From Trypanosoma brucei (lineage: Eukaryota): a stretch of DNA of 64,000 bases. Made by a program: the position numbers and the translations under genes. Under the pieces are notes generated by a model. The model saw only the letters and a list, made by a program, of their open reading frames with translations. It was not told the origin of the DNA and did no database searches. The stretch spans positions 576,001 to 640,000 of the forward strand of contig CM000208.1 in assembly GCA_000002445.1 (NCBI GenBank), written 5' to 3'. Of this stretch, positions 35,287 through 53,973 are shown in pieces; position 1 is the stretch's first letter, and each line of letters starts with the position of its first letter.

Positions 35287-36699
35287 GGGGTTAAGAAGTG
35301 CTGTTGCGCTCTGCTCAATTACATTTTCTCATATGAGCGGTATTAGTTAATAATCAAACTCACACTGTCCATCGGGTTACCAGCGCGACCCCAGGGGGTT
35401 TCCCCCTCTCTTCAGTTCGCACTTCTCTCTCAAAGTATATTTCCCTTTACTGAATTAGCGCATGTAAAGAAGAAGAAAAAAAGGTTGGAAAAACAAAAAA
35501 AAAGAAAAAAAAGAAAAGAAAAAAAAACAGTCGGAAAAGGGAGAGAGAATGTGTGTGCATGCATGAGTTATAGAGCAGAGAAGATGGGTGGTGATGTCTT
35601 TGTTATGTGCAGTAATATGGCAGGGTCAATTTGATGTTGAATGAGGCATGACTACCTGAGGTTAACTCGAAAGGGCGCGTTTCTCGCGGTCATATGTTTA
35701 TTTCATTTGCCCTGTCCCGGCACTTGTGTGGATAAAATGTGATTGCCTCATATTAGTATACATCCTCCTACCTTATGTCCAAAAAATAAAACTGCTGTCT
35801 CCTGCAAAAATAATAATAATTATTATTATTACGCACCTATTTTTTTTTCTCTCCTCGCTTGTCTTTTGTTATTGTTTTTTTTTTTAAAGACGTATTCAAG
35901 TCCCAACATGAAAAAATTCCCCAATAGACACAAATGCTTTGTGTGCAATTCATTTGAACCATGAATGCGTGCACTTGTACACAAAACGTTAACTCCATAA
36001 TGTTAAAAAGAAAGGGCGAGTATGGGAGGGAGGAAGGCAAGAGGAGGAGAAAAGTATAAATGTGGAAACACATCGCGAAACTTTTTTTTTTCCTTTTTGT
36101 CTTCCTCCTGTACTGCAACGTTCCGTCGACGCAAAAAGTATTGCAAAAGATGTCAGTTTTTATTCTCTTGTGGTTTTACCGCTTCTATTTGTGTACCGAT
36201 GCGCCTTTAGGTTTGCTGTCAAACCGTCTATAATAATAATTATTATTATTCTCATCGTTTAAACGTTATCAATATGATTTATTGATTTACGGTTTCTAAA
36301 GGGCATGCGGGCTTTTGAAAACAGCGGTGTGCCGCTCCTGTTTTTGTCCCCCAAAACCCAATGAATTATTTCCATGCATTTACCATCGTTTAATTATGGG
36401 GTGCACATCCACGCTGTAGAAATTGGTGGTATATCATTCATACAATTTAGTTTATGTTCTTATTTAAATGACTATCCTGTGTGTGTGTGTGTGTGACGAT
36501 AATAATAAAAATGATGTTGTTGTTGTGGCTGCTTTTGCATATCTACTTTCTTATTTTATATTATATTATAATTATTATCATTATTGATTTCTTCAACCCC
36601 CACTTCTTGTACTTCATGGAATATATAGACCCCCGGCAACTGCATAGCAGTGCCTTTAAATATATAAAGAAATAAAAGAGGGACGGAACCATATTACCA

Positions 36700-36757
36700 A
36701 TATATATATATATCCACATCCACATATATACATAAAACATATATATATATATATATC
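36700..36757. repeat. (TA)n microsatellite, interrupted
   Basis: TATATATATATATCCACATCCACATATATACATAAAACATATATATATATATATAT is read directly from the window. Confidence 0.8.
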
Positions 36758-36826
36758 TGTTTCTTTCATAGTGTTAAGTGCAACTGCGGCGAGAAGACGA
36801 AAAAGCGTAGGGTTGAAGGAAGGGGA

Positions 36827-37966
36827 ATGACTGATGTCTCGCTTCGACCCTTAACAACTCATAAATCGCATCGTCACTCGCACAATACGGGAGTGCTGGA
36901 GTGTCAAACTATTTTGCAAGGGAGATTCAGATTGAATGGTCTGCTGGGAAAAGGAGGATTTGGAGAGGTATACGCCGGTGTGACGGTTTCCACGGGTGAA
37001 GAAGTGGCAGTGAAGATTGCACCAAATAGAAAACGTCATGTTTTGGCTCATGAAGCGGATGTCATGCGTTCCATACAAAGTGCTGTTGGTAATGCAGATC
37101 CGCCAGGTATACCCACACTGAAATTCTTTGGTCATGATGGTGATAACACTATTCTCGTCATGAGTGTTCACGGGCCGTCATTGGAGAAGCTCCGCTCTGA
37201 GATGGGAAGGCTTTCCCTCAAAACAGTAGTTATGCTTGGTATGGAAATGATTGACAGAATACAGTTCTTTCACTCCACTGGATTTATACACCGCGATATT
37301 AAACCAGGAAACTTCCTCATGGGCGTTGGAAAGCACGCGCATGAAGTGTATTTGATTGATTTTGGTCTCAGTACCCGTCACAGTCATTCCGGTGCTTGGC
37401 ATCGTGGAAGACCGACTGCAAGCAAGTTTGTTGGCACATCATGGTTTGCATCCCTTCGCACTCATCAGGGTTACGCACAGAGCCGCCGAGATGATTTGGA
37501 GCAGTTGGTTTATTCACTAATTTATCTCCACCGCGGAAAATTGCCTTGGACGGAGTTACGGCACACTGACCGAACTGAAAGGACACGGGCTATTGCAGCG
37601 GCGAAAGAAAATCTCTCTACCGCACAAATATGTGTGTGTTGCCCCCCTCAGTTTGAAGTGCTTCTCACATATGTACAGAAGCTTAAGTTTGATGAAATAC
37701 CGCGATATGAAATGTGTAGGAATATCATTTGGTCTATTCTCCATCCATCATCTGCAGGTCCGAAACCGAGTTTAACGTATGAATGGCTCACACCAGAGCG
37801 GGAATGCGAGACACCAAAGTGCGTGTTTCCGGCTCTGAGGGGATCAGAAACGAAACATGGAACTAAAAACGATGAAGTGGCAAGAAACGATAGTGAAGCA
37901 AAGAAAAGTTTGAGGAGACGAATGCCCACAGCGAGTTCTACATCTCATACCGCCGGAAAGGGATGA
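36827..37966 (+). CDS. Casein kinase 1-family Ser/Thr protein kinase
   Basis: LLGKGGFGEVY..VAVKI (Gly-loop and VAIK lysine). HSTGFIHRDIKPGNFLMG (catalytic loop, CK1-type). LIDFGLS (DFG). SIN-like motif region after the kinase domain. Confidence 0.85.
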   Translation: MTDVSLRPLTTHKSHRHSHNTGVLECQTILQGRFRLNGLLGKGGFGEVYAGVTVSTGEEVAVKIAPNRKRHVLAHEADVMRSIQSAVGNADPPGIPTLKFFGHDGDNTILVMSVHGPSLEKLRSEMGRLSLKTVVMLGMEMIDRIQFFHSTGFIHRDIKPGNFLMGVGKHAHEVYLIDFGLSTRHSHSGAWHRGRPTASKFVGTSWFASLRTHQGYAQSRRDDLEQLVYSLIYLHRGKLPWTELRHTDRTERTRAIAAAKENLSTAQICVCCPPQFEVLLTYVQKLKFDEIPRYEMCRNIIWSILHPSSAGPKPSLTYEWLTPERECETPKCVFPALRGSETKHGTKNDEVARNDSEAKKSLRRRMPTASSTSHTAGKG

Positions 37967-40549
37967 TGTTGGCTAATCATAATCATCATAATAATAATGA
38001 TGAGGAAGTATTGGGGCGCCACAAGTATTTTTTTTCCCCCCTTCTTTTTCCCCTTTCCCCTTTCCCCTTTCTTTCTTCTTCTTATTCGTCTTCTTCTTCT
38101 TGTAAAATGCGGCATGTAAGGGCAACCTCTCCACCACACATAGGCTGGAAGTTGTGTGAGACCGTGCGGCCTCCTTTTCCACCGTCTGTCTTTTGTTGCT
38201 TCTGTTTTGTTTTTTTTTGATGATGATGATGATGGTGTTGTTGTTGTTGTTGCCTCTCTTTCTTTTTTTTTTCTTCCCCTCCTCTTACCGCCTTTCCAAC
38301 ACTCATTTCACTTTCAATTTTTTTTTTCCTGTCTCTCCCTCTGTTTCTTTTCCCCACGAACGACAATTTTTTATTACCTGTTTTGTTAATCAGTTTGTGT
38401 AATGTGTGTACTCGTGTGATGGGGAAAGATGTGGTGATGCAAGACACGCAATGTATGCTACGGTTCTTTTTTTTTTATTATTTTCCAGATCATTGTTCTC
38501 AAACAACCAAATAAAAACAATTATATATATGTATAATATATATATAAAGAAAAAAAGAAAGTAAATAAGTTACACGGAGAAAGAAAAAAAAAGGAGGAAG
38601 GGAGGAGTACTCAGTTTACTTCCCGATTTTGCTCTCGAGTTTTATTTCCTTGTCTTTGCATTTTGTATACTTTTTTTTTACTTACTGTTGACACTCCCTT
38701 GTGGAGTGTTGATTTGTAAGGGAAAAAGACAAGGGGAGGAGGAGAAGAGGGAAAAATTAATTTTTTTTAAAAAAAAGAAAAAAAAAGCACCCTCATGTGT
38801 GTTGTCCTTTTTTTTTCTTTAATTCCCATGCTACTATTCCATACCCTCGTTATTATTATTATTATTATTAACAAAAGCGTAAAAGGTACCCAAGCGTAAG
38901 CGCAGTGCAACCATTTCTTTTTTTTCTTTTTTGTTCTAAATGTTTATGTCTCGCTCAACCACCCCATGTCCAGTGCACCTCATGAAGGAAGGGGTATTTA
39001 ATGAAAGAGAAAAAAAAAAAGTAAAGTGAAAAAAAAAGGAGAAAAGATAAAAAAAAAAAAAAAGGGAGGGAGGGAGAAAACAGGGCAAGAGAGAAAATGT
39101 GGAGTAGTTTTGTTTTTTTTTTTAAAAAAAAACAAGGAACGAAGAAGTGAAGGGGAAAAAGGAGAGAGAGAGAAATGTGAATATTTATGCTCCCGGTCTC
39201 TCTTTTCTTTTTTTTCTTTTTTTTTCTCCCGTCCTTTTTCCCTCCCTCCCTTTCTTGCCGCTTGTGGGGATTTTATGAGTTTATTTTGATTATTTTCTCC
39301 ATCCGCGTTTTCCTCATATGTTCTTAGGTGCTATGGGTTCTGATGTCATTCCTTCTTATTTTCCATACCACTTTCTCTTCTTATCATGTTGTTAATCTCA
39401 TGAGATATTTATATATTTATATATTTATGCCGATGAAGAACCGTTCGCCTTTTGTTGTTGTTGTTGTCGTTGGTGTCGTTTCAGATGTAACACCCTTCCC
39501 TATTGTCTTGCTTCCTCCGCTGTGAGGTCGCGTTTTTGTACACTTGTGGTTGTCTGTTTGTTTTTTGTTTTTTCTTTTTGTCGTTGTTGGGATTTTTTTT
39601 TTCTGTTACCACGGTTCCCATTAAAAAAATAAATATATATATATACTATACGATGTTACCACTTCGCTGATAATTTCTTCATATTCATTCGCGCATGTGG
39701 AAATCATATGGGTTATGTGTGAAGATCGGAACGACTTTTGTAACCGGTCCCTGCGTCTTATCTCAATTGTCTACTCTTGTCCCCTTTTTTAAAAATAAAC
39801 CTTCCAACCTCTACTTTCTGTATCACTGTTATAATTCTTGAATAAGCAAAGAAAATACAAACGACAAGCGAATGCGCAGTGAAATAGTTTTTCTTTTTAA
39901 ATCAAATAGAAAAGCAAGGGACTAAACTGTGTGGACCCGGCTGAGCACTGCGTAGGTGATTCTCTTTTATCGTACAACACAGGAGCAACCTTTTAAGAAG
40001 AAAGGACCGCCAGGTGCAGTTTGTAGAACTTCCATTCGCACAGGAGGGGAAAAAAGGAAGTGGATTATATTAGACTAAACCACGCGGGTCCCCCAGACAA
40101 AAGGGGAAAAGTAAGCCAAAATTCATCCGCTCGATATTTGAACGTCCCCCCCCCCCCAAATGATGGTGAACTTCCATCGATTTATGGTTGAAAAAGATAT
40201 TGCGTGAAGCAACACATCCCTCCACCACCAACACACAACTCCAGTAGGGAACGTTTGGTTGGATTGTGTAGGCATAAACGGCCTTTTGCCCGTACCGCCT
40301 TGAATTTTGTAATGCGGGTGTGCCTATGCTGAAGTGTTGTGCGGACCCATCTAAAAGGATGGCTGTCAAAAGAGTTGGATCCCCATCCATTTTCCATCGT
40401 TCGCACCCAGAGGCCAGTTGCACTATTTCCAATATGTGACAAAGGCGGTCTCTTCCCTATTTTTCCTGTTTCCTCTCCCCTTCTTCATTATTTGGTATTG
40501 ATGACGAGCGTGCCGTCGGTCCCACTCAAGACTGTAACCGTAAAAAACG

Positions 40550-40621
40550 AAATCAGTGTTAGTTCAAACCATACTTTCAGGTGAAATGGGTTTCTCCGCA
40601 TCTCCGTTTCATTGGATGGTG
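40550..40621. repeat. Left copy of a ~72-bp inverted repeat (partner at 42320..42391), immediately 5' of the retroposon signature
   Basis: AAATCAGTGTTAGTTCAAACCATACTTTCAGGTGAAATGGGTTTCTCCGCATCTCCGTTTCATTGGATGGTG matches the reverse complement of 42320-42391 with ~4 mismatches. Confidence 0.7.
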
Positions 40622-40632
40622 ACTAGTCTACA

Positions 40633-40710
40633 CCCTGGCGATGCCGGCCACCTCAACGTGGTGCCCAGGGTCCAGTGCCCCGTATCATCGGGGGAAGCCA
40701 AGAGCCAGCA
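40633..40710 (+). promoter_or_regulatory. Pr77-type retroposon 5' signature (internal promoter, reported HDV-like self-cleaving ribozyme)
   Basis: 77-79-nt block starting CCCTGGCG and ending AAGAGCCAGCA. From memory it matches the conserved first ~77 nt shared by ingi, RIME, L1Tc, NARTc, DIRE and SIDER. Confidence 0.65.
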
Positions 40711-40828
40711 GAGTTCCTTTCATGGGGAACACTTCTGTGCTCCGGCTACGGCATCATACAGCACAGGGATCAACAGCGTCTTGCTGGGACACCGTTTTTC
40801 ATTTGTCGGTCCTTGGGCACGTGCCAGC

Positions 40829-40897
40829 GTTGCCATCAGCAGTATCATCCGCACTAAGATGCTGCTGTCCGGTGATGTGGAAGAGAATCCCGGCCCG
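40829..40897 (+). other. Virus-like 2A ribosome-skipping peptide (..IIRTKMLLSGDVEENPGP) in frame with the retroposon ORF1
   Basis: The codons GAT GTG GAA GAG AAT CCC GGC CCG at 40874-40897 encode the canonical D(V/I)ExNPGP 2A motif. It lies 12 codons upstream of the ORF1 'MQW' position, the same arrangement described for L1Tc and ingi. Confidence 0.75.
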
Positions 40898-40909
40898 TCG
40901 TTGCGCCGG

Positions 40910-41080
40910 ATGCAGTGAAACTGCGCCGGGCTATCTCAAGGAAAGAGATTAGCACTCCACAAAACCCTTGTTGATAAGCGGATCGCCTTTTGTCTGTTGA
41001 GCGAGACAAGGATGACGCCTGGAGAGGCGGCTTGCTTTAGCGTTGCTGGTTACCTGGCTAGTCTACACTTTGCGTCCAAA
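40910..41080 (+). pseudogene. Retroposon ORF1 (APE-endonuclease N-terminus) pseudogene with a TGA stop at the third codon
   Basis: ATG CAG TGA AAC TGC GCC GGG CTA translates to M Q stop N C A G L. The intact ingi ORF reads MQWNCAGL. Translation stays ingi-like for ~55 codons and then breaks down. Confidence 0.6.
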
Positions 41081-41999
41081 TGGGTAGCGAGGAGAAACGA
41101 ATAATACGGCGACGAAGCGAGGCCCAGGGAAGGACCACTTCAATGCGGAAACGGATTCGGGAATCCCCTCGGACCAAATGGTTTTGCGGTGGGGAGGCGC
41201 CCCGCGGAATTCCCAGACATCGGGGGGAGTGCGTTATGGTATTCTGTTTTCCTCTCCTTTAGGTCCGCGTCCCGACGGCGAGTCATAATACAGAGGTGTC
41301 CAAGCGTGTTTTTTTTTCCTTTTAAGGAACCACTTGGGGACCGAAAATGGAGGTCGGTGGGGGCAAGAAACAAAGAAGTTGGGGGAGCGAATGGAAATTG
41401 CCATGAAGAAAGGAGAGGTGGAGGCGGTTGCCCACCAGACTCCTTCCGCTACCGCTTGGGTGCAAAACACAAAGTGTTCCTCGCATGCCGAAACACCGCG
41501 GCCTCGGGAGCGCGGAGTCGACGTCGCGTAAGGAATTTGAGAAAACGCTCCGGAAAGTTCAGGCGAAGGGAAGCCGTTGCGCCTCTGGTTGCCCAAACGC
41601 TTCGGTTTCAGAGCTGGCCACGGGGCCCGGTTTGGGCTCTTCAACGAACAAATTGTGAATCCGCCGCTCTAACGAGTGGAATCTGACCGCGGGTGGAATG
41701 ATGGAAAAGGGCACCGAGGCTTATATTTGCAGAATCCGGTGGCTTTTTAGCCCAAAACACACCTCAGGACGATGGGCAGGGTAATCGCTTGACGCCCCAG
41801 CTGGATGACGGTGGATTCGCCACCACTGCAACGATGGGAAGCGGGAACAAGGATGGGAAAGGTGTCAAGTAAATAAGGGATGAAAAAGCAAGCACAAACC
41901 TCCCATCGTGTAGGCGGCGTTCACGCGATGGGTGTGGAGACCTCGAGGAGATTTACAAACAGAGGCAACCACGGAACTGAACCAACTGAATGAAGCCAT

Positions 42000-42036
42000 C
42001 CCCCCCCCCATTGTGTGTGTGTGTGGGGGGGGGGGG
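42000..42036. repeat. C10-ATT-(GT)7-G12 palindromic homopolymer/dinucleotide tract (potential hairpin or slippage-prone site)
   Basis: The sequence CCCCCCCCCCATTGTGTGTGTGTGTGGGGGGGGGGGG is read directly from the window. Confidence 0.8.
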
Positions 42037-42319
42037 AAGGATGCAGAAAATAACGCGCGTGAAACAACCTTGCGGTGACGGAGAGTGCGCTAACATAAAA
42101 AAGAGGGGAAGGTGGTCTCAACAAGTTAAAAATAATGTAGGGAATACTGAGGCCATGTGCCTGTTTGTGGCACGCTGAAGGTGGCGAGGGAAATACATGG
42201 ACAGGTAAATTGGAGAGGGCAAATGCGGAAAAGTGAAGTGAGATGAAGTGAAGCCTCCGCCAGCATTCTTCGGTATGGCAGATACCAACAAATCAGCGGC
42301 TGCATTGGACGGGAAATGC

Positions 42320-42391
42320 CACCATCCAATGAAACGGAGATGCGGGGAAACCCATTTCCCCTAAAAGTATGGTTTGAACTAACAGTGATTT
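42320..42391. repeat. Right copy of the ~72-bp inverted repeat
   Basis: The reverse complement of CACCATCCAATGAAACGGAGATGCGGGGAAACCCATTTCCCCTAAAAGTATGGTTTGAACTAACAGTGATTT aligns to 40550-40621. Confidence 0.7.
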
Positions 42392-43945
42392 AGACGGCGC
42401 CCCCTTTCCGATCCCTGTTGAGACCTCATACCGCGGTTGGTGATGAGAGGATTCCTGACATTATATTTGTAGGCGGTCGCGGACGTTCCCCTTCTCACAG
42501 CCATGCCACGTCCCACTGTTTTTTTTTCACCTTATCCTCCACTGTGGGTGTTCGTTGTTTTTTTCTTTTTTCCCTTACTCTCCATTTTTTTTTTTTAAAG
42601 TTCCAATTATCCCTCTTTCTGGTACCGAAACCACGATATTCATTGTGCGCCTTAACCGAGAAACGGCTGCGCCACAGATGGAATCCATAGAAGTGGATGA
42701 AGCGGTTCAGCAGCATTTGCTAAACTGCGTGTCTTACGTGATGGAGTGCGCACAAACATCAAGAAACGCCAAAATCCTATCGAGGGGGGGGAAAGTGGGG
42801 GAAAAGGTGGAACACATTGTGGTACGAACTTCTCCAGAAGAACTGTAAGACAAAATGTCAAGAGAAACAAGGCGAAGCCAGTCGCGATGGCAGCAACCAC
42901 CATCTTCAAGAGCAAAAAAAAATTTTGTAAAGGGGGTATAAAAAGAAGCAAATGGACAATCCGTAACTTGAAAAACAGAAGTGTAACTATATAACTTTCA
43001 CCGGTGCCTCCAGTTTTTTTTTTCTTGTTTCTCGTGCATCCCTTCCTGACACACATGCACATTTTGATGTGCACGTTAGTTGCATTGCTGTGTAACACGA
43101 CCGCAGTAAAACAAAGTTCTGGCACCCACAAATGAAAATTGGGTAAAAACAGCAAGAACTTATATTCAAAAATGCCCACAGGCGTACTTATAGTCATTAC
43201 CTCAGACTTAATATAAGCGAATGCATCAATAAAGGTATACTGCCTTTCCCCCGACCTACGAGAGGCATTTCAGGTTTTCATACCCTTTACCAATAGCATT
43301 GAATGCTTTTTAATAATAATAAAATAATTCTCCACAGAAGCAAAAGGGGGGTTTATGTCACTTCGAACATCCTAATGCTTTCTCGCGGTCCTATAATTCA
43401 TACCCATAGCTTAGCTTAAGGAACCTCTACGAGAGAGGTGCGTCACTTTCAGCACGTTAATGCAGGCGGTTCGAATGTATAAATGAGACGTTGCCTTGCT
43501 AGTTATTGTTCCATGGGAGGATTATCTCCACTCATAACCCCTCGCCCCCCAAAAAACAACACACAAAGACACTGAGATTCACCACATTTGACAACATTCC
43601 CCCTAAAGGGTTTAAAATGTTGAATCCCTCTCGCTTCTGCACGCAGGTCCCGTGCTTGTAAGTACCGTGACCCCTAGCAACAGCTCCCGTGCCCTGCTTC
43701 GTGCAGATTAAGGTTTGCACAGTCGCTGCTGGCGGAGTTGTATCATCCCCCATTATGTACATTTATCTACGCATTACCGAGCACCTTCGCAATACATCCG
43801 GAGTTTTGGAAACTCGGTCACATAAAGTCAGCACGGACCCTCCCAGTCCCTACGCACTTCCCCTGTGGATCTTTTTGCTCTCCAGTGCCTTTGCGTTTTC
43901 TGCTCTTTCCAGACGGAGGCGCGGATCCAGCTGAGGTGGCACCAT

Positions 43946-45721
43946 TCACATTTGACGAGGGTTCACGGCCGCGTTGTCGTCAGTGGGGAGTTTCGGAAGT
44001 GGGGTCAATCTAAGCTTGTAATCCTCGTCATCGAAACAAACTTCTTCCCGCGTGGGGCAGATGATGCTGCCTTTCCAGAGGTGACGACCGAGGGGCTGCA
44101 CTGTAGCACCGGGTTTACACGTCTGCCAGCTGTGGTCTAGCAAAAAGCGAATCTGTAGCTCTTTGCCAGTGCAGTTCGTACGGACACAAACGTCACCAAT
44201 ATCTTTATTGGAAAACTTCAAATTGACACCCTTCACACATCGCGAGCCCTTTCCAACCTCACTGCCACGCAAAAACTTCGACTGACCATTGACGCAGTTA
44301 CCGCTGTTGTACTGAACCACCATCGGGCAATGGTCCATGAAACGGGACTTGCCACCAACCCGTGAATTTCTGAAGTAGCGGAACTCGGCGGGAAGTTCAG
44401 TTCGATGTGTACCTAGGGAACACTGGCCGAGTCCGAGACGGTCATGGGTACAAGTGAACAGACGGCTCTTCCATAAATGATCGCAGAACGTGTCGGGGTG
44501 CTTTGACTTTCCTTCCTGCAAGCATTTCTCCTGTAGAAAACTACATCCACGATTTAGGCCCCAACGCGTCTTCTCTGCGCGACTGAAATTGACGCGGTAG
44601 TGTCCCATACTTGCGAACACCCCTAACGACATCACAGTTAAATAATTCAAGTTCCCATAAGGGGCCATCACGTCCTCGACGGCATTGCGTTGCTCCAAGT
44701 GTGTTGCGAAAACGCCGGGGCCTCCTTCATTCTCCATTTCGATACCCGGAGCCGTCGAGCAATTGAAGTGCTTCCGCGCGACACGCTTCGCAACCTCAGA
44801 ATCGACCAACCACGAGGTTTTAAGTCCGCGAATGCCTCCTTTCTGTTTCATAATTCCCCTTCTTATGAGGATATCTGCTTGGAAGCCGAGAGCGTGTCCT
44901 AATTCGTGTGCGATAACTCGCACAAAGAAGTCAGTTTCGGCAACGTACTTGGGGGATATGTTGACAACGCCAGAAACCGGGCGGCCGTCAGTGAGCATTG
45001 CGCACACGGAAGCCCACGCCATATTCCCTATCGTTGGCCGAGCCGCCACGTATATACTAACATCACCTTCAAAACCATTGGTGTAGTGACCCTTGGGCAC
45101 CTTGAATAAGCTGCAGTATCCAGCGTATGAGGATGGTAAAACAATCCTCCGGTGATATCTCCTTACCAACAGGCGATCCGTGTGTAATTTGATTGCCTTT
45201 GGAATAGCGACCTGCACGATGACGCGCTTCTTGCGAACTGTGAGAACATCCCCCGCTGTACAAACAGTCGTCTTCCCACTGACGAGTATGCTACGGACAT
45301 CACCTGCCATCGTGCAGAAGCGGCTGGGGTCATTCAAGTCTTGCGTGTAAGCTCTGATGCGAATTGGTTTCCACCTGCTGTCAATCTCCCCTTGCCCGTA
45401 ATCATCAACGTTATTGGTGTATTTAGGTTTCTTATCTACGGATGCAGTTCTTGCACTAATCAAATCACCGCCAGTGGTACCCTTCGCTTCTGATTCAGGG
45501 GGCATAGTACCTACTATCGGCACATCATCTGGATTAATCGCAGAATGATGACTTCCGCACCAACCACGGGGCGTATCGCCGGTGCCTTCCTCTCCCCATT
45601 GTTCCTCTGGTGCTTCCAAATGTGTCGCTGATGCTTCCACGTGCACGTGTGCTCGCAAGTGGTGCGAGACGAAAGCGGCAAATATGCACCAAAAGATAGC
45701 GGTTCCTAACAGTTGGGTCAT
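43946..45721 (-). CDS. GP63/leishmanolysin (major surface protease, M8 zinc metalloprotease), apparently without a GPI-anchor signal
   Basis: Minus-strand 591-aa ORF. N-terminal hydrophobic signal-like segment (LLGTAIFWCIFAAFVSH). HEXXH zinc motif VIAHELGHALGF with M8-type surrounding sequence and many conserved Cys. The C-terminus (...TDDNAAVNPRQM) is hydrophilic. Coordinates follow the ORF track. Confidence 0.9.
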   Translation of the reverse strand: MTQLLGTAIFWCIFAAFVSHHLRAHVHVEASATHLEAPEEQWGEEGTGDTPRGWCGSHHSAINPDDVPIVGTMPPESEAKGTTGGDLISARTASVDKKPKYTNNVDDYGQGEIDSRWKPIRIRAYTQDLNDPSRFCTMAGDVRSILVSGKTTVCTAGDVLTVRKKRVIVQVAIPKAIKLHTDRLLVRRYHRRIVLPSSYAGYCSLFKVPKGHYTNGFEGDVSIYVAARPTIGNMAWASVCAMLTDGRPVSGVVNISPKYVAETDFFVRVIAHELGHALGFQADILIRRGIMKQKGGIRGLKTSWLVDSEVAKRVARKHFNCSTAPGIEMENEGGPGVFATHLEQRNAVEDVMAPYGNLNYLTVMSLGVFASMGHYRVNFSRAEKTRWGLNRGCSFLQEKCLQEGKSKHPDTFCDHLWKSRLFTCTHDRLGLGQCSLGTHRTELPAEFRYFRNSRVGGKSRFMDHCPMVVQYNSGNCVNGQSKFLRGSEVGKGSRCVKGVNLKFSNKDIGDVCVRTNCTGKELQIRFLLDHSWQTCKPGATVQPLGRHLWKGSIICPTREEVCFDDEDYKLRLTPLPKLPTDDNAAVNPRQM

Positions 45722-48103
45722 CTCTCGCCCTTTGCGACTTTAAAAACAACCTCTCTTTCCTTGTTTTTCAGTCTCAAAAGCAGCTGGACGGCGCTGCGTT
45801 GATGTACGCACGTATGGATAGTGGCAGATATTTTCTCTGTATTCACCTAACGTGCGATATAACCCTTCACCACTAGACCTACTACTCCCTCTACCTCACT
45901 TAACCAAATTCAGCACGTCGAAAAGTGGCGTCGGACTAATTTCTTCTTCTATGTGAAAACGCAAAAACAGAAAACAACGGAATCTGGGGTCATTGTTCAC
46001 TACCCCCGTGCGGAACAAAAGCCCACCAAATGACTTGTAAATGGAGGGGGAAATACCACATAAGCAACCCCTAGAAAAAAAAATACTTAGTGGCATAATG
46101 ACAAAAGTTTTTTTAAAAAAAAAAACAGCTAGCCGAAAGTATAACAGTTTTGCAACCTCTCGCTTTTGCCTTATCTTGCTGTTCACATTCCCACTAACTG
46201 CTGCGGAAAACGAATGCGTATATGTCAAAAAACAATGACCAGCAGTGGCAATGCAAAGCGAGACCCCCAGAGGTCTGTGAGTGCGCATGGTTTGCATTCT
46301 AACGGTACCGCCTGTTGGTAATTAAGCAGCAAAATAACACTAGCTTCTGGGGTACGCATGCCCGCACCTGCGATAACAACCGAATAATTGTGGTGACGCC
46401 TCTCATAGAAACCTGAACTAATGATGTACAACCCACAGTATCACTTTGTAACTTCTATCCACATGCACGACGACTTGAAAGAAGATGGGATAGGAGAGGT
46501 TGCTCATTTCTGGGCTACACAGAGGTGTAATGCATGTCATGTGAATGAAATGCTAAGCGAAGTAACGTCACTGTAACGTCGCTGTATGCGCGGCACTTCC
46601 TCGCTCTGACGCCAATGCGCCTCCACATCGTCACACCACACAAACGCGTGGCATTTGCTAAAATGTTTTCATCTTTATCAACCATAGATCAGCGGCATAT
46701 CCGAAGAATGTGCTAAACCGGCAGGTGCATCAAAGTAAACCGCTCTAGACGATCACAGAAATAAGTTGAGAACTGAACGTCACATGCTATAAACAAAAAA
46801 TATATTACATCTGACTCAATTAATGCAAAGAAGAAAGCGGGAGCAAGACGGAAAAAGAAATTAAAAGGATGAGCCGACAAATGTAAAGTGGGCCTCTGGT
46901 TTTCACACACACCAAGACAACAGCGCAGAATCACGGCAGCAGCCTATACGGCAGACAGCCTACATGCCGTCCATTATGTTTTTTTCGACGCAGCCTACAC
47001 CAAATAGACATAAACGAACTCATGCTTGCGGGAGCTCGACAAAAAGCTTTTAATGAGGAAACCAAAAGGGGGAGGGATCGGCACCAGCGCCGAGACATCG
47101 TTCAGGGCACATGCACAAGAAACTAGCCAAATATAAGAGTGTGGGGAGGCCCAAATAAATTGGATTAGGGCATAAGAAAAAAACCAACAACAACACACAT
47201 GTATACACATAAATGCAGAGTACTACTCGCCCCTATATAATCAAAAACAATCAGTGTTATACCTTACGGTGTATGCACATACCTCATGACGGCCTAGTGA
47301 AAGAGAAAGGGCACGTATCGGGTAGGAAACATGACAGCCACAGCTTTCCATTCGCTGGTTGAGTGGCTTTATTTCCCCCTTCGTTAGCAGAAATAAAAAC
47401 ATATGTGTGGTCGGACACAGCCAAAGTAATGAAGAGGAACCCTGAAAACATTTTCCTGAAACAAAAGTCGCATTAAGCAAAGAAGCAACTAAGCAAACAA
47501 AAGTGGCAAGTTGGTGTGAAATTGCCCCTCACATGCACCCCGCAGCCGCTGCCGTTGCGCATGGCTGCGTAGTATTCCTTTGTTGCGGAACAGGGGGGAA
47601 GTTGTGAATTCAAGGGAGGAAGTCCAACAAATAACACTGTTGGTGGGTGAGCATAGGCATCCTTGCCCACTCACAAGAACTAAAGAATAATAATAGTGAT
47701 AATAGTAGTAGTAACGATGATAAAAAATAAATGAGGGGGGACAAACAGTGGGTGAGATAAATAATGTGTGAGGCAAATAGGTTAAGAGAAAAACATGATT
47801 CAAAGCTGTTGATTGAGAACAAATAAGATTCAACGAACAGTCGTCGCTACAATAGTCAGGGGTCTCCCCCACCAAAGATGGAAAATGGTACATTAAGGAA
47901 GTAGACATCAAGCGGAATAAGCACAAACAGGACATACATGAACATACGTAGAAATTTGTATGCGTACATAGGCTCGTGTGCGTGGGCAGCGGTGGGTAAT
48001 GAGCTCGCTTGTTCTTGGATTTGGTAACCGTCTACGGACTCTACGTTTTTTTTTTACTTCCACCCTCGCCGGTAGCTGGGTCTCCGTGCCCCTCAGGCGT
48101 GGT

Positions 48104-51100
48104 TTAAGAGGAAGAACCGCGTGGCTGGGTAATGACAATCAGCGAGGCGCTCGTTAGCGTACTGAACGTATGATCAGCGCCACTCGACGCGCAGTAATCC
48201 ACAACGTGCCCAACCTTCACTGCGATGCGCCGTATGACCTCCTGGTAGTAGCTGTCATCCCAAATGGCAGGTGGCTTGCGCGGCAACACCACACGCCAGC
48301 GCTCACAGAAGGGTAAAAGCGCCTTTTGCCGCTGAGCACGCGCGAAAGTACCGAGTAAAGCGTTCAAGGAGGTCACTATAACTTGGGAAGACTCACTCAA
48401 CTCCGCACGTGAAGAACTGTGATCACTGGTAGAGAGTACCGAGCCGTCTGTACCGTCATTCAGCACGTCAACATCCCTGTCGAGACGAAGTGCTGCGAAC
48501 TGTCGACCAGCTACTGTATTCAGCTGGTACATCTCAACTGGCTCCGGTACGCCACGCAGTGGTAAGGCACCGAGGGCGGTTACGTCAAATTGCTCACGTT
48601 CCATGCCGCTCATCGCAAGATAAGTGGCCCGAGTCAGAAGCACCTGCCCACCGTTGGTGACACTCTCTGTCCGCGCAGCCATGTTAGTTGTGCGCCCATA
48701 GTAGTCATAACCCTTCGTCACTTCATCGTGTCGGATATCGCATAACCCCGTGTGGATTCCAACACGTACACGCAGCCCGTTCCACATTTGGCTGTACGCC
48801 TCATCGGCGAGGTGAGCAGTTGGTGGAACATAATCATTTTCCACCTCAGCTCTCTGTTCCTCAAACTGCCGGTAGGATTGGTCAAACAGTGTGGTTCTCC
48901 AGTTGTGAAGGAGGAATGATCGCTGCAAGTTGCACGCAAGTTGTACAGCCGCAAGAGGGCTCCTACACGCGATCATAAACGAGTCCCCGATGGTCTTCAC
49001 CTCGTAGCAGCGGTACTGCACAATAAGGGAGCGGATCAAACGATGATGCGTGGCTACGGCGTCGGGCATTTGCTCAGGGTGTGCTGCCCACTGCGCCGTG
49101 CTGCCCTCAATATCCGTGAAAACAATGGTAACGGGGGCTGTTAGTTCTTTCGGGGCGTTGTCATTGTCGCGCCCGCTCCGAGTTGCGAAGTACAACGGCA
49201 CCGCAATAAAGAGCAGCACAAAAAAAAGGAGAACAGACCCAGCAATAGCACCTGCTAGTTGCGCCGCTGTAAGGCCATTTGCGTTGGGGTCCACGTAAAA
49301 CATTTGTGGCGTAACCGGATCTTGCAACACTGGCACACTTGAATTCATCACACGCGCCATGGACCACACGGATATGTTCGTAGCACCAAAATTCGAGATG
49401 CAATTGGCCGCCGCGGCAAAACCTGAAATCAGGCAACTTTCTCTGTCGTAGGTGCCATACCGCATGTCGTCAACAGTGATTGAGGCTTCCTCAAAGAAGA
49501 GGTCGACCAACAGTTGGGAGGTCACCTTTTCCATTCGACGGATATTTCGCTGCATAAGCCGCTCAGTGGCAAAACCTAGTAGGGCCAAAGGGGTTCGGTG
49601 AGGCGGTTTCACAACTTTGTGGAACTTTCGAACTGTTTTCGATTTTGAATCGGTGTCGCCCCAGTGGGGAAGGTTGGTTGCGAAAAGAACACGCTCCGCA
49701 CCCGCGCTACCGTTGAAAACCCCAACGAATTCGTCGTACATCAGCATTACCTCGGAAAACTGGACGAAAATACGCACATCTTGATGAGTACGGAGGTACT
49801 CTTTGACTATCGGAATATTACCGCTGCCAATACCAAGAAGAAACACATCGCCTTTTGCTGGGAGGTATTTCTCCAGCTCGCCCACGTCCCTAAATATTTT
49901 ACTGGAGGAGAGATTTGCGCGAAATGTCACTAGCGTCCTCGTCAATACCTCCGCTATCTCAGCACCTTCTCGACTATAGACAGCCAAATGAACCGGTCCT
50001 TGGCGGTTCTTGGACAAATAGCTCACAAGCACGTACAGTTGTTGTTCCAATGTTGGCGATAGGTGGATTACATTACTTCTGAACTTGTTCAAACGAGGAT
50101 CCATGACAATGGGATCGATGAAGGTTAAATTTTTCACGGTTAACATTTCCTCGACCACAACCCCAAACACCGCTGTGATGATACTGTTTTTTCGCAGCTC
50201 AACAAGATCATTCATGGATTGTTCTGTGGTGCTGCCAACCTGAAGCATAATAAGTCTGTTGAGTTCGCCGACATTCAAAAGTGAGGCTGTGGAAGATATG
50301 CCATGATAAAACTCCAGCGCGGCCCTGAGCATCGTGAGGTTGTCGGCCATCCTCATGATGACTCCACTAAGCGGAGGGTGCAGTTGGATGGCATTAGAAT
50401 AACAGTGGTCTCGGCTCGTTGAGAAAATCCCTGGAAGGACATGTTGGAAGTGATAACCTTTAACAACTTCTTTCATAAACACCTTTTTGCCACCGCGGTT
50501 GCAGTCGCAGACGGCACCCTGAGCGGCGGCACCTGTGGCACATTCACCACCGAAGTCTCCAATTACAAGATCATCGATCACGTAACGGCGTTGGTCGTAC
50601 AATGAGTTTATGAACGAAATACGGTCGCCCAATTTTGTGTTGCTCCTAAGAGCACGCATAAGTACCTCACCCGCAATCCATCCGTACACCATTAGTTCCC
50701 CATCTACATCGTTGGTGAGGAAGTGATTCGAGTCGCTGAGACCTGACCATTCCGGATGCCGCGTTAAGTAATCCCTTGCCTCATTCTGGAAGCGTCTGAT
50801 TGCTCCGAAGTAAGTTGTCTTGGCAAGCGGATTTGTGCCAGTTTGGATCAAACGATGAGGTACAAACGATACATTGCTCGCTTCCAGGGCCTGCCTCCAT
50901 ACAGCAACGAGTGACTTCTGAAGCAAAGAGGGCGCAAGCAGAACAGTAGTCGCGGTCCGTTGGTCGGACACTAACCTCCCGACAATTTGTTTGGTATAGT
51001 CGTTTATCCGAGTGAACATAATGGCGGCCTGTGGAAGATTCTGGGCAAACTTTTCCCACTCTGCTTCGAACGCCTCACCGGAGGCAGTTTCTTCAACATC

Positions 51101-51712
51101 ATTTGGCACAGTGAACAGACAACAAAGCTCGTACCCTAGTTGGGACATTAACTCTGTTGCTCGAGAATGCGCTGATGGCGCCCCCGCCAGGCTTTCAGTG
51201 TACATAAAACCCAACCGCAGCACGCGCATGTGATTAACAGCATAGCGGATAAGGGCTACCAGCTCAGCGCTTGGTTCAGGTCGCAAGAAGTATAAGTTCG
51301 GCAAAAACTTGCGGGATTCTGTCAACTCTGTTAGCGGAGCGAAGGCTACAAGGTTGTGCTCTTTCAACACCTTGTAAGATTTCCTTATGTTTCCCTCCCC
51401 CATCGGACCGAACACAACCAGCAAACTTTCACTGTCGTCTGCGTTTTTCACATAATTCTCCAAGTATTCTGCTGCGGAGACGTTATATGAAGGAGGCCTA
51501 ATAACCGTGACGTCAATCCCTGGCACTACAGTCCAATTTTGCGCGGCCAAGGAAGCGTTAAACCCCACATTCAAAGAATTTATGATGTCAACAGTGGCGC
51601 CTGCGGAATTAAACATAAGGGACAAAACTTTCACAGTCATCCTCACCTCATGCCCCCCTTGCGCCAGTGAACAGGGGACGCACAACGACAGGAGTATCCA
51701 CAGGTGCAACAT
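48104..51712 (-). CDS. Receptor-type adenylate cyclase (GRESAG4/ESAG4-like): large extracellular ligand-binding-like domain, single TM helix, C-terminal class III cyclase catalytic domain
   Basis: 1242-aa minus-strand ORF (track 48104..51832). Signal-like MLHLWILLSLCVPCSLAQG begins at the second in-frame ATG (codon top at 51712). TM AIAGSVLLFFVLLFIAVPLYF. Catalytic domain VTIVFTDIEGSTAQWA...KTIGDSFMIA...GVRVGIHTG...GRTTNMAARTES. The upstream ATG at 51832 adds 40 non-signal residues. Confidence 0.9.
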   Translation of the reverse strand: MLHLWILLSLCVPCSLAQGGHEVRMTVKVLSLMFNSAGATVDIINSLNVGFNASLAAQNWTVVPGIDVTVIRPPSYNVSAAEYLENYVKNADDSESLLVVFGPMGEGNIRKSYKVLKEHNLVAFAPLTELTESRKFLPNLYFLRPEPSAELVALIRYAVNHMRVLRLGFMYTESLAGAPSAHSRATELMSQLGYELCCLFTVPNDVEETASGEAFEAEWEKFAQNLPQAAIMFTRINDYTKQIVGRLVSDQRTATTVLLAPSLLQKSLVAVWRQALEASNVSFVPHRLIQTGTNPLAKTTYFGAIRRFQNEARDYLTRHPEWSGLSDSNHFLTNDVDGELMVYGWIAGEVLMRALRSNTKLGDRISFINSLYDQRRYVIDDLVIGDFGGECATGAAAQGAVCDCNRGGKKVFMKEVVKGYHFQHVLPGIFSTSRDHCYSNAIQLHPPLSGVIMRMADNLTMLRAALEFYHGISSTASLLNVGELNRLIMLQVGSTTEQSMNDLVELRKNSIITAVFGVVVEEMLTVKNLTFIDPIVMDPRLNKFRSNVIHLSPTLEQQLYVLVSYLSKNRQGPVHLAVYSREGAEIAEVLTRTLVTFRANLSSSKIFRDVGELEKYLPAKGDVFLLGIGSGNIPIVKEYLRTHQDVRIFVQFSEVMLMYDEFVGVFNGSAGAERVLFATNLPHWGDTDSKSKTVRKFHKVVKPPHRTPLALLGFATERLMQRNIRRMEKVTSQLLVDLFFEEASITVDDMRYGTYDRESCLISGFAAAANCISNFGATNISVWSMARVMNSSVPVLQDPVTPQMFYVDPNANGLTAAQLAGAIAGSVLLFFVLLFIAVPLYFATRSGRDNDNAPKELTAPVTIVFTDIEGSTAQWAAHPEQMPDAVATHHRLIRSLIVQYRCYEVKTIGDSFMIACRSPLAAVQLACNLQRSFLLHNWRTTLFDQSYRQFEEQRAEVENDYVPPTAHLADEAYSQMWNGLRVRVGIHTGLCDIRHDEVTKGYDYYGRTTNMAARTESVTNGGQVLLTRATYLAMSGMEREQFDVTALGALPLRGVPEPVEMYQLNTVAGRQFAALRLDRDVDVLNDGTDGSVLSTSDHSSSRAELSESSQVIVTSLNALLGTFARAQRQKALLPFCERWRVVLPRKPPAIWDDSYYQEVIRRIAVKVGHVVDYCASSGADHTFSTLTSASLIVITQPRGSSS

Positions 51713-53973
51713 TACTCCCGGGAAAATACGTAAGTGGCCGACAGAACCAGTCCCAACGCTTCCCTCGGTTCCTGGACGAGTGGAGAAACGACGACGCTGC
51801 TGTGCCCTGCGTCCCACTGTCGATTCGTGCATGGTGACGGTCGTAATTTGGGGGGAAATACGTTAACAATCCTTCTAGTCAAATAATTAAGATGGAAAGT
51901 ACAATGTACAAATGGGGTTGCGTTGTCAATAACAAAAGACATGAGTAAAACTCAAGGAATCCATCACTTTACAGGAAAACGATGTCAGACACCGCGCGCA
52001 CATAACCTTAAAATAATAAAAACAATGCAAGTCGAGAGTGGAAAATTGTTCATCACCTCCAAATCACCACTAGCTCTACCTCTGAACCGCCTGTGAAACA
52101 TATGTGTGTAGCACGCACTATGAGTTCACACAAACAAAACTTTATCGTCGCTGTATCGCACGAGACGCAAACACAAAATACCAAATACTGTCTGCTTCTA
52201 TGCCTCAAGTTCAACGGTAACCAAATAGAGGCCCATCAGCAACATACACCGGCACTGTGGGAAGGGCAATAACCCTTTTCCACGACTGCAAAAAGAAAAA
52301 AAATTGCAACAAACGAACCCTTTAATACAACAGATAGCGGAAACAAGTTCTCTGTTCCGCTTCAAGTTCCAACGCCAAACACCACCTTTCGCCCAAACTT
52401 TAGATGTAATTAACCCCTTAGGACCCGCTTGCACAAAACCGTAAACTTCGATGTGCAAAACACCTAGAGTTTCCCCCGAACACCGAGCAAGGAACTTGAC
52501 TTAACATACACGACAACTACAACTCAGTTCCCGTAGGAGGAACACAGTGTCATTAAAGGAATTAAATTGTAGGGATGTTCACACAAACACCAAACTGACC
52601 AACTCCCCCAAAAAGCACCAACAGTTAGGAAAAGTTCTTGATCCGTTTCAGAGACGCGTAAACACCGAACCAAGCATCAGCTTCTATATTCCCAACAACC
52701 AAACCCAACCCACAAGGCCCCCTGCCTTGCCTCCAGGAATAGCACAATGCGTCCACCACTTCTCATCGAACATATCACCTTCAGCGACTGTTGGCCCTTA
52801 AAGCAAAAAAAAAAAAAATCGCCGCGAAACGGGAGATAGGAAGAAAGACCAGACACGCAACACATGTCCAACCCAAAGTTCATTGGCGATCCGTTGGCTT
52901 GCTGGCACGACACCGCGAGAGCCGTTAAAAAACAGGAAGATGCCCATCATTGCAGCAGCGAGAACTTTGCCCACCCTGCTAAAGCCCATAACCGGGTCCT
53001 CTTCCTCTAACAGCACACCCATTCGATCTTCGATATGCCGTTGCACAATTTTGCAAAAAAGAGGAATGACATTGAGCCTCCATGATCAAAATGACATTTC
53101 AAAGATAAAACATTCCCTTTTAACCCTTATTAAGAGACGAACATGGAAACAAAGAAACAGATCAGTGTTTGAAACTTAACACAAATGGAACAAGTGTATA
53201 CTACCTTAACGATAGCCACGAAACGCTTCACCTCAGCTTCGTAAGCCCACAATAACAAAAAAATGAAAACGGAAAATAACACGAAACGTGTTCAAATTAT
53301 GATTCACCTTTCTCTTATTAAATTTCCCCCACAGTAGAAAACCTTTTAATTTAAGACGCATTTTCCACTTGCGACACCCAGTTTCCTTGCACAATAACCC
53401 ACCATTACTCCACAAAAAAAAAAAAAAGAAAAAAAGTAAGCGGTTGCGCCCACATCTTCCAGTATTTGGGGAACATAGAAGGTGGACGCTCACCGCGTCA
53501 GTTAAAGGGGAACACGAGATCAAAACTTCCTGTAGATCCTTGGAAAGCATCTGTCAAAATATGACTTCACGCACTTTCCTCTTCAGGATGCACCTTTTTT
53601 CCGCTCTTTTCCTAGGAATAGAAATTCCCATTTCCCCTTAAGAAGAAGCCCTAGTGTCGAAACATGTAAGTATAACACAAGCTGTTCTTCTCAAGCAAAG
53701 AAAAAAAAAATTCACATCTCATTCTAAGAAGTAAAAAACAACAACAACAACAACAACAACAAGTGCAAATGTAAATAAATGTGTAAGCACACACTCATGC
53801 GTGTGTTCATGCATAAGTATGCACACCCTCGGCTATCGTGTTCTGCTATATTATCCTTTTTAAAAAAACGCACCTGCTCTCCGTCGGCTCAATACGAGTT
53901 GTAACAGAATAAAAAGAATGGAAATTTCACTCAAGAAGGGTCACATGCACATCTTCATTCCAGGCCAAGAGGA

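What the first reader, a model, noticed from the sequence alone, without database searches (positions are those of the whole stretch)
40633..40710. Pr77-type 5' signature (HDV-like ribozyme / internal promoter) of an ingi/L1Tc-family retroposon
The 77-79 nt starting CCCTGGCG and ending AAGAGCCAGCA are, from memory, near-identical to the conserved 5' end of ingi, RIME, L1Tc, NARTc, DIRE and SIDER elements. In L1Tc that 5' end functions as an internal Pol II promoter, and the transcribed RNA folds as a hepatitis-delta-virus-like self-cleaving ribozyme. It marks the exact 5' boundary of a retroposon insertion within the convergent strand-switch region.
Basis: partly seen in the sequence, partly recalled or inferred. 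Interest (0 to 1): 0.7.

Follow-up and report, generated by a model that had tools for sequence, protein, structure and literature searches.

The report
Pr77 head of a truncated ingi retroposon
The 78 bases are a genuine copy of the conserved "Pr77" 5' signature of the Trypanosoma brucei ingi/RIME retroposon family, sitting at the head of a dead 422-bp stump of an ingi element between two converging gene clusters; it is an ordinary, already-described kind of sequence.

Summary
Window 40633-40710 is a Pr77-type 5' hallmark and the only one in the window (nhmmer E=1.7e-21; 96.4 bits against a covariance model built without it). It is 97% identical to the T. brucei ingi/RIME consensus and 75% identical to the published L1Tc Pr77. 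It carries the CGTG downstream promoter element at +25 to +28. Homology to full-length ingi starts exactly at 40633.

The element is neither a whole ingi nor a RIME. It is only ingi positions 1-420 (40633-41054). It holds the 2A-peptide coding stretch and about 50 codons of the AP endonuclease with an in-frame TGA, and it has no poly(A). It is flanked by a 13-14 nt direct repeat. The same stump lies at the orthologous site in T. b. gambiense chromosome 10 and in T. equiperdum.

The RNA can be drawn in the HDV-like fold (P1, P2, P3, P4), which covariation across trypanosome copies supports. This copy has an extra C that bulges P1. It is evolving no more slowly than its flanks.

Promoter activity is shown only for L1Tc; a published test on ingi/RIME in T. 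brucei was negative. No detailed cleavage data for ingi were found.

Verdict: a known family and a decaying fossil copy. The only oddity is a repeat-flanked, poly(A)-less 3' truncation.

The parts
40620..40632 (+). Upstream copy of the flanking direct repeat (TGACTAGTCTACA), the presumed target-site duplication. The next base, C40633, also repeats, so the match runs 14 nt.
   Evidence: the repeat finder family D18. The gambiense ortholog reads TGGCTACTCTACAC here, so the ancestral upstream copy equals the downstream copy TGGCTAGTCTACAC.
40633..40710 (+). Pr77 hallmark (78 nt here; 77 nt in the consensus). As RNA it is a candidate HDV-like ribozyme whose expected cleavage site lies between 40632 and 40633.
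40657..40660 (+). CGTG downstream promoter element at +25 to +28 of Pr77.
   Evidence: Sequence check. The motif and its position are defined in PMC4748587.
40664..40664 (+). Extra C within the run GCC[C]AGGG, which is the 3' strand of helix P1. It is absent from the gambiense ortholog and from all other T. brucei-group copies examined.
   Evidence: In the model it forces a one-base bulge and costs about 3.8 kcal/mol.
40633..41054 (+). 3'-truncated ingi fragment covering ingi positions 1-420. It is 95-96% identical to full-length ingi.
   Evidence: No other ingi sequence occurs anywhere in the window at DNA or translated level.
40838..40897 (+). Coding remnant of the 2A-like peptide SSIIRTKMLLSGDVEENPGP.
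   Evidence: Translations and coordinates. 2A is described in trypanosome LINEs (PMC5814959).
40916..40918 (+). In-frame TGA (MQ*NCAGL) where the ortholog and intact ingi copies have TGG (Trp), at the start of the AP-endonuclease domain.
41055..41067 (+). Downstream copy of the direct repeat (TGGCTAGTCTACA, followed by C41068). It abuts the last ingi-homologous base with no poly(A).

Best explanation
This is the intact 5' head of a dead copy of the T. brucei LINE ingi.

Shown:
- The window comes from a T. brucei-group genome. Its locus is orthologous to T. b. gambiense chromosome 10.
- Bases 40633-41054 are ingi positions 1-420. They hold the Pr77 hallmark, the 5' leader, the 2A peptide coding stretch and the first ~50 codons of the AP endonuclease, now carrying a stop codon.
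- The fragment is bounded on both sides by a 13-14 nt direct repeat and lacks a poly(A) tail.
- The insertion predates the split of the T. brucei subspecies.
- It diverges at the same rate as its flanks.

Inferred:
- The insertion was made by the ingi machinery through target-primed reverse transcription (TPRT). Reverse transcription most likely started on an ingi RNA lacking its 3' part, or at an internal site. That would explain a full-length 5' end, a target-site duplication and no poly(A).
- The element lies in sense orientation 2.7 kb downstream of the last gene of the + strand polycistron. Read-through Pol II transcripts would therefore contain it as RNA.
- That RNA can adopt the HDV-like nested double pseudoknot: P1 1-7/31-37, P3 18-20/28-30, P4 45-49/56-60 and P2 8-16/71-79, in consensus numbering.
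- If still active, it would cleave itself immediately 5' of C40633. That is how the family defines its own 5' end.
- The extra C bulging P1 probably weakens this copy.
- Any promoter role is unlikely in T. brucei.
- The copy most probably has no function for the host.
For: Identity and boundaries:
- establish the family and the limits of homology.
- The protein kinase ORF is identical in T. equiperdum OVI, and that contig breaks inside the Pr77 at nt 28.
- The gambiense chr10 locus is collinear over 10 kb at 97.8% and carries the same stump.

Normal elements for comparison:
- Canonical RIMEs fetched here show 12-bp target-site duplications and poly(A).
- A 12-bp duplication is the rule for Tbingi/TbRIME (PMC3820030).
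- The repeat here is 13/14 identical, and perfect in the inferred ancestor.

Fold:
- All helices can be drawn for the L1Tc, L1Tco and TvSIDER1 Pr77 sequences, the element types for which cleavage was shown experimentally (PMC3185411, PMC4035085), for the ingi consensus and for this copy.
- 86.7% of cells pair, against 34-51% when partners are slid.
- 10 pairs show compensatory double changes, and 0 of 500 shuffles reach this.
- The T. grayi copy adds two more compensatory P1 pairs.

No extra constraint:
- Window versus gambiense differs at 2/78 positions in Pr77, 12/347 in the rest of the element and about 2-3% in the flanks.

Context:
- Retroposons are about 60-fold enriched in T. brucei strand-switch regions (PMC5814959).
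Against: - No experiment here or in the searchable literature shows self-cleavage of the T. brucei ingi Pr77. It is reported only as unpublished (PMC4035085), and none of the T. brucei SIDER signatures assayed there cleaved.
- The pseudoknot-free minimum-free-energy fold of the ingi and window sequences is a different, competing structure: 3-7 pairs with 72-76, at -29 kcal/mol. The same holds for the highly active L1Tco, so this does not decide the matter.
- P1.1 can be at most one base pair.
- I derived the helix model from the same sequences on which I counted covariation. The published figure could not be read.
- Rfam's HDV-like families do not match.
- A 3' truncation flanked by a target-site duplication is not what standard TPRT produces. 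No microhomology explains the 3' junction: ingi continues AACATC where the repeat starts TGGCTA.
Confidence: 0.85

Rival explanations
1. The host has co-opted the Pr77. One version has it acting as a self-cleaving site that cuts read-through Pol II transcripts at the end of the + strand polycistron and helps termination. The other has it acting as an internal promoter that fires into the convergent strand-switch region.
For: - It lies in sense orientation 2.7 kb downstream of the last + strand gene, inside a convergent strand-switch region.
- It is retained in three T. brucei-group genomes.
- The Pr77 stretch is the best-preserved part of the element, although the numbers are small.
- Regulatory roles for Pr77 at strand-switch regions have been proposed (PMC3383444, PMC4748587).
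Against: - Divergence in Pr77 (2/78) does not differ from the rest of the element or the flanks.
- The window lineage has acquired an insertion in P1.
- The subspecies compared are so close that shared presence says nothing about selection.
- Promoter assays with the ingi/RIME 5' end in T. brucei were negative (cited in PMC1874656).
Confidence: 0.08
2. The stump arose after insertion. A complete ingi or RIME, with poly(A) and a normal target-site duplication, inserted here. A later deletion removed everything from ingi position 421 through the poly(A) tail.
For: - Another 5' fragment, covering ingi 1-301, exists elsewhere without any flanking repeat. Post-insertional truncation therefore does occur (L006).
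- The sequence TGGCTAC just inside the break resembles TGGCTAG at the start of the repeat.
Against: - The right-hand end of the deletion would have to fall exactly at the poly(A)/duplication boundary, leaving no A residue.
- A deletion mediated by the TGGCTA microhomology would leave one copy of that motif. Two are present.
Confidence: 0.2
3. It is a RIME, SIDER or DIRE rather than an ingi fragment.
For: It is short and non-coding, and it carries the shared 5' signature.
Against: - RIME joins ingi 1-247 to ingi 5013-5260 and ends in poly(A), as seen in L005 and L007.
- Here homology is continuous through ingi 1-420, and the ingi 3' end is absent from the whole window.
- 95-96% identity to active-type ingi excludes the degenerate DIRE and SIDER classes.
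Confidence: 0.02

Closest known systems
Tbingi (T. brucei ingi LINE, ingi4 subclade), 5' end
   Same: - It is 95-96% identical over ingi positions 1-420.
- The Pr77 differs from the consensus by one insertion and one substitution.
- The 2A-like SSIIRTKMLLSGDVEENPGP and the start of the AP endonuclease are the same.
   Different: - It holds only 422 bp of about 5.26 kb, with no reverse transcriptase, no 3' end and no poly(A).
- The flanking repeat is 13-14 nt, not the canonical 12 nt.
- It has an in-frame stop codon.
L1TcRz / Pr77 of T. cruzi L1Tc and NARTc (PMC1874656, PMC3185411)
   Same: - Same position at +1 of the element.
- Same CGTG at +25 to +28.
- Same helix plan, with compensatory changes: A10-U76 in L1Tc versus U10-A77 in ingi, and the P4 stem.
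   Different: - It is 75% identical.
- Promoter and ribozyme activities were measured for L1Tc, not for ingi or this copy.
- This copy has a bulged C in P1.
TbRIME
   Same: It shares the first ~247 nt, including Pr77, and the same insertion machinery.
   Different: RIME carries the last ~250 nt of ingi and a poly(A) tail. This element instead continues into ingi 248-420 and has neither.
HDV-like self-cleaving ribozymes (HDV, CPEB3, R2, drz families)
   Same: The order of strands matches: P1, P2, P3, L3, P3', P1', P4, J4/2, P2'. Cleavage is expected just 5' of P1. The P3-L3 region (ACC-UCAACGU-GGU, followed directly by the P1 3' strand) resembles that of HDV. That resemblance rests on my own recall of the HDV sequence.
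   Different: - P1.1 is at most one A-U pair, not two G-C pairs.
- There is no match to any Rfam HDV-like model.
- The catalytic cytosine is not assigned. My candidate is the conserved C of GGAAGC.

Membership tests
[quoted passage not shown] | Sequence similarity to the ingi and L1Tc 5' ends. | tested here: met
   97.4% to the Tb ingi/RIME consensus and 75% to the L1Tc R77 oligo. HMM E=1.7e-21. 96.4 bits against the covariance model.
[quoted passage not shown] | Located at the very 5' end of the retroposon, directly after a target-site duplication. | tested here: met
   Homology to ingi starts at 40633, and a 13-nt direct repeat ends at 40632.
[quoted passage not shown] | CGTG downstream promoter element at +25 to +28 (PMC4748587). 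| tested here: met
   CGTG at 40657-40660.
[quoted passage not shown] | Pol II internal promoter activity. | not testable with these tools
   Shown for L1Tc in T. cruzi (PMC1874656). Reported negative for the ingi/RIME 5' end in T. brucei (Garcia-Salcedo 2003, cited in PMC1874656).
HDV-like ribozyme (L1TcRz type) | Helices P1 (7 bp), P2, P3 (3 bp) and P4 in the nested double-pseudoknot order. | tested here: met
   All can be drawn. In this copy P1 has 6 contiguous pairs plus C7-G31 across a bulged C, and the outermost P2 pair is lost. Covariation supports the helices across the family.
HDV-like ribozyme (L1TcRz type) | P1.1 pseudoknot and a catalytic cytosine in J4/2. | tested here: inconclusive
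   Only one possible A-U pair for P1.1, as published for L1TcRz (PMC3185411). A conserved C in GGAAGC is present, but its role is not established.
HDV-like ribozyme (L1TcRz type) | Match to curated HDV-like covariance models. | tested here: not met
   No Rfam hit at the gathering threshold or at E up to 10. No trypanosomatid Pr77-type or other HDV-like family came up in either search.
HDV-like ribozyme (L1TcRz type) | Mg-dependent self-cleavage 5' of nucleotide +1. | not testable with these tools
   Needs an in vitro co-transcriptional assay. It is unpublished even for consensus ingi (PMC4035085).
Tbingi (autonomous LINE) | About 5.2 kb with AP endonuclease, RT and RNase H coding capacity and a 3' poly(A). 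| tested here: not met
   Only ingi 1-420 is present in the window, and it carries a stop codon at 40916-40918.
TbRIME | ingi 5' ~250 nt fused to ingi 3' ~250 nt, plus poly(A) and a 12-bp target-site duplication. | tested here: not met
   There is no ingi 3' sequence and no poly(A), and homology is continuous to ingi 420.

The most novel reading that the evidence does not exclude
The stump records a non-canonical retrotransposition. The ingi machinery would have inserted an RNA lacking its 3' end and poly(A), for example an RNAi-sliced or prematurely ended transcript, or reverse transcription primed internally. The result has a complete ribozyme-defined 5' end and a 13-nt target-site duplication. 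If several such copies exist, ingi reverse transcription would not need the element's 3' end. A second, weaker reading is that the retained Pr77 ribozyme cuts read-through transcripts at this convergent strand-switch region.
Probability: 0.12. Interest if true: 0.4.

Novelty: already known. Interest (0 to 1): 0.15.

Why it matters
It matters little beyond annotation.

- It correctly flags a retroposon remnant. In T. b. gambiense the same stretch is annotated only as a 'hypothetical protein, unlikely'.
- It shows that a Pr77 copy can persist at a transcription-termination region.
- The repeat-flanked, poly(A)-less 3' truncation is a small puzzle for how ingi-clade elements start reverse transcription.
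- The copy offers a natural P1-bulge variant for anyone assaying the still unpublished ingi ribozyme.

Tried and rejected
1. Rfam on the whole window, and permissively on 40400-41300 and 42200-42500, gave nothing relevant.

2. By eye I suspected a second, degenerate Pr77 on the - strand near 42170 (CCCTCGCCACCTTCAGCGTGCC...). Neither nhmmer with filters off nor the covariance model (default filters) detects it. Rejected.

3. I tested whether 41069-42319 is further ingi or DIRE sequence. There is no DNA or translated similarity to full-length ingi.

4. I tested whether the 72-nt inverted-repeat arms are a tRNA or another structured RNA.
   - ARAGORN found nothing.
   - Rfam found nothing.
   - Folding z-scores lie between -0.7 and +0.4.

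5. I looked for microhomology to explain the 3' junction. Priming of TGGCTA on ingi 414-419 would predict a single TGGCTA, but two are present. Rejected as a simple explanation.

6. Exact-product look-ups of the neighbouring 181-aa ORF and of the ORF spanning the Pr77 found nothing on record. The extra C could therefore not be checked in further strains.

7. PMC2756862 (ingi subfamilies) is not held. The ingi4 insertion-site consensus could therefore not be compared.

8. A full-text search for the ingi-specific string GTATCATCGGGG found no paper. I took reference ingi/RIME sequences from genome loci instead.

Full report
**What is there.** It is unique in the window. A profile HMM built from 13 Pr77 copies of six trypanosome element types finds only this site (E=1.7e-21; the next hit has E about 1). 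A covariance model built from ten copies, excluding this one and its ortholog, scores it at 96.4 bits, against 109.3 bits for consensus copies. That model finds nothing else in the window. Rfam has no family that matches.

**Where the window comes from.**
- The protein-kinase ORF at 36827-37966 is identical to a gene of T. equiperdum OVI.
  - Its contig is 99% identical to the window downstream of that gene.
  - That contig stops inside the Pr77 at nucleotide 28, a typical assembly break in a repeat.
- Translating the element retrieved T. brucei-group 'hypothetical' and 'BES15S03c' proteins.
- One of these led to the orthologous locus on T. b. gambiense DAL972 chromosome 10 (FN554973.1).
  - That locus is collinear with window 36000-46000 at 97.8% identity.
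  - It carries the same element.
- Gene orientation there and in the window (+ up to 37966, - from 42652) confirms a convergent strand-switch region.

**Reference copies.** Using the protein hits I fetched the following:
- two full-length ingi (L002 and L003, about 5.26 kb);
- two RIMEs (L005 and L007);
- one other 5' fragment (L006).

The RIMEs show the textbook anatomy: ingi 1-247 joined to ingi 5013-5260, a poly(A) tail, and a 12-bp target-site duplication. This agrees with PMC3820030. Five of the six other T. brucei-group Pr77 copies share one 77-nt sequence through position 77.

The window copy differs from that sequence in two ways:
- an inserted C in GTGCC[C]AGGG, at 40664;
- an A-to-G change at 40677.

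The gambiense ortholog has neither change, so both arose in the window's lineage, or the extra C is a homopolymer miscall. Identity is 97.4% to the ingi/RIME consensus. It is 75% to the L1Tc Pr77, whose exact sequence is printed as oligo R77 in PMC1874656. It is 80.5% to L1Tco. For L1Tc the figure matches the published 76.6%.

**What the element is.** Homology to ingi starts at 40633 and stops at 41054, which is ingi position 420.

Inside the element are:
- the 2A-like peptide SSIIRTKMLLSGDVEENPGP, at 40838-40897;
- the first ~50 codons of the AP endonuclease, with TGG mutated to TGA at 40916-40918.

Nothing else in the 64 kb resembles ingi at DNA or protein level. It is therefore not a full ingi, and not a RIME, because it has no 3' half and no poly(A). 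It is far too well conserved to be a DIRE or SIDER.

The fragment is bracketed by TGACTAGTCTACA(C) at 40620-40633 and TGGCTAGTCTACA(C) at 41055-41068. In gambiense the upstream copy carries a different single mismatch, so the ancestral repeat was perfect. A 13-14 nt repeat abutting both ends is the mark of an endonuclease-made insertion. Target-primed reverse transcription (TPRT) normally yields 5'-truncated, poly(A)-tailed copies, not the reverse.

The most economical reading is that reverse transcription began on an RNA lacking its 3' part, or at an internal site. A later deletion ending exactly at the poly(A)/duplication boundary is possible but needs a coincidence. The nearby TGGCTAC/TGGCTAG similarity does not produce the observed junction. 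I could not settle this.

**The fold.** The published L1TcRz drawing could not be read, so I derived the helices by homology with HDV-like ribozymes. I then checked them on sequences of the element types for which cleavage was shown experimentally: L1Tc (PMC3185411), and L1Tco, NARTco and TvSIDER1 (PMC4035085). The last three sequences come from that paper's supplement.

In consensus numbering the helices are:
- P1: 1-7 with 31-37
- P3: 18-20 with 28-30
- L3: 21-27
- P4: 45-49 with 56-60
- P2, the pseudoknot: 8-16 with 71-79

All of them form in L1Tc, L1Tco, TvSIDER1, the ingi consensus and the window copy.

Covariation supports the model.
- On a 13-sequence alignment, 86.7% of cells pair, against 34-51% when partners are slid.
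- Ten pairs show changes on both sides.
- None of 500 shuffles reaches the observed values.
- Examples include three compensatory P1 pairs in TvSIDER1, A-U to G-C in P3, and A10-U76 (L1Tc) versus U10-A77 (ingi) in P2.
- A T. grayi copy found here adds two more compensatory P1 pairs.

Caveats on the fold:
- The model was derived from these same sequences.
- An alternative P3 register (16-18 with 27-29) also fits ingi and L1Tc.
- P1.1 is at most one base pair, as the authors also state.
- The pseudoknot-free minimum-free-energy fold of ingi is a competing structure. The same is true of L1Tco, which cleaves about 94% co-transcriptionally.

In the window copy the extra C must bulge out of P1 or shorten it to 6 bp. 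The nested part of the fold drops from -21.8 to -18.0 kcal/mol. The outermost P2 pair is also lost. Whether this abolishes cleavage cannot be computed.

**Function.**
- For L1Tc, promoter activity, cleavage at +1 and the essential CGTG element are experimental facts (PMC1874656, PMC3185411, PMC4748587). The CGTG is present here at 40657-40660.
- For ingi the record is thin.
  - Promoter assays in T. brucei were negative (Garcia-Salcedo 2003, cited in PMC1874656).
  - Ribozyme activity is mentioned only as unpublished (PMC4035085; no later paper).
  - The T. brucei SIDER signatures that were assayed did not cleave.
- This copy diverges from its gambiense ortholog at 2/78 positions in Pr77 and 12/347 in the rest of the element. 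The surrounding 10 kb diverges by about 2.2%. There is no sign of constraint.

I therefore regard it as a decaying fossil. Its RNA, made by read-through from the upstream polycistron, may still cut itself at 40632/40633. There is no evidence of host use. Retroposons are strongly enriched in T. brucei strand-switch regions (PMC5814959), so the location is expected.

**Verdict.** The observation and the interpretation are correct, and the kind of element is well known. The qualifications are the stump-like nature of the element, the P1 insertion, and the lack of functional data for ingi. The only unusual feature is a repeat-flanked, poly(A)-less 3' truncation.

Noticed in passing
window 40550-40621 and 42320-42391: A 72-nt inverted repeat, 94% complementary, with arms 1.7 kb apart that bracket the ingi stump and 1.25 kb of unique sequence. 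It is conserved in T. b. gambiense. Homology of arm A runs to GGTGGC, which is 4 nt into the target-site duplication. It is not a tRNA, has no Rfam match and shows no significant fold. It might form dsRNA in this convergent region.
   Followed up: partly
window 42000-42036: A C10 run, then a TG-dinucleotide tract of about seven repeats, then a G12 run (CCCCCCCCCCATTGTGTGTGTGTGTGGGGGGGGGGGG). This low-complexity palindrome-like tract lies in the middle of the strand-switch region.
   Followed up: no
L001 (T. equiperdum OVI CZPT02000602.1), 3' end: The contig ends at nucleotide 28 of the same Pr77 copy. This short-read assembly breaks at the retroposon, so the locus is incomplete there.
   Followed up: yes
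L004 7001-7603 (T. b. gambiense FN554973.1): The ingi stump is annotated as a 200-aa 'hypothetical protein, unlikely / T. brucei spp.-specific protein'. It is a retroposon remnant that reads through Pr77, 2A and the endonuclease start.
   Followed up: yes
L003 6304-6992 and 6993-12249: The full-length ingi on T. b. equiperdum chromosome 8 is abutted at its 5' end by an inverted 690-bp ingi 3' fragment (92% identity), giving a tail-to-head inverted pair.
   Followed up: no
L006 2993-3293: Another ingi 5' fragment, covering positions 1-301, lies on T. b. equiperdum chromosome 4. It has no flanking direct repeat, so 3'-truncated ingi heads are not unique to this locus.
   Followed up: partly
L009 1333-1364 and 1493-1570; L007 419-497: T. 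grayi carries a partial Pr77 (model positions 7-38) 130 nt upstream of a full one. A weak Pr77-like hit (24.7 bits) lies 2.6 kb upstream of a RIME in T. b. gambiense and may be a degenerate SIDER or DIRE head.
   Followed up: no
window 43946-45721 (-), 48104-51832 (-), about 55113-57505: The - strand cluster next to the element encodes a GP63-type peptidase M8 and a receptor-type adenylate cyclase, assigned through the Pfam families of the gambiense orthologs. ORF orientation switches back to + near 55-57 kb, which suggests a divergent strand-switch region.
   Followed up: no
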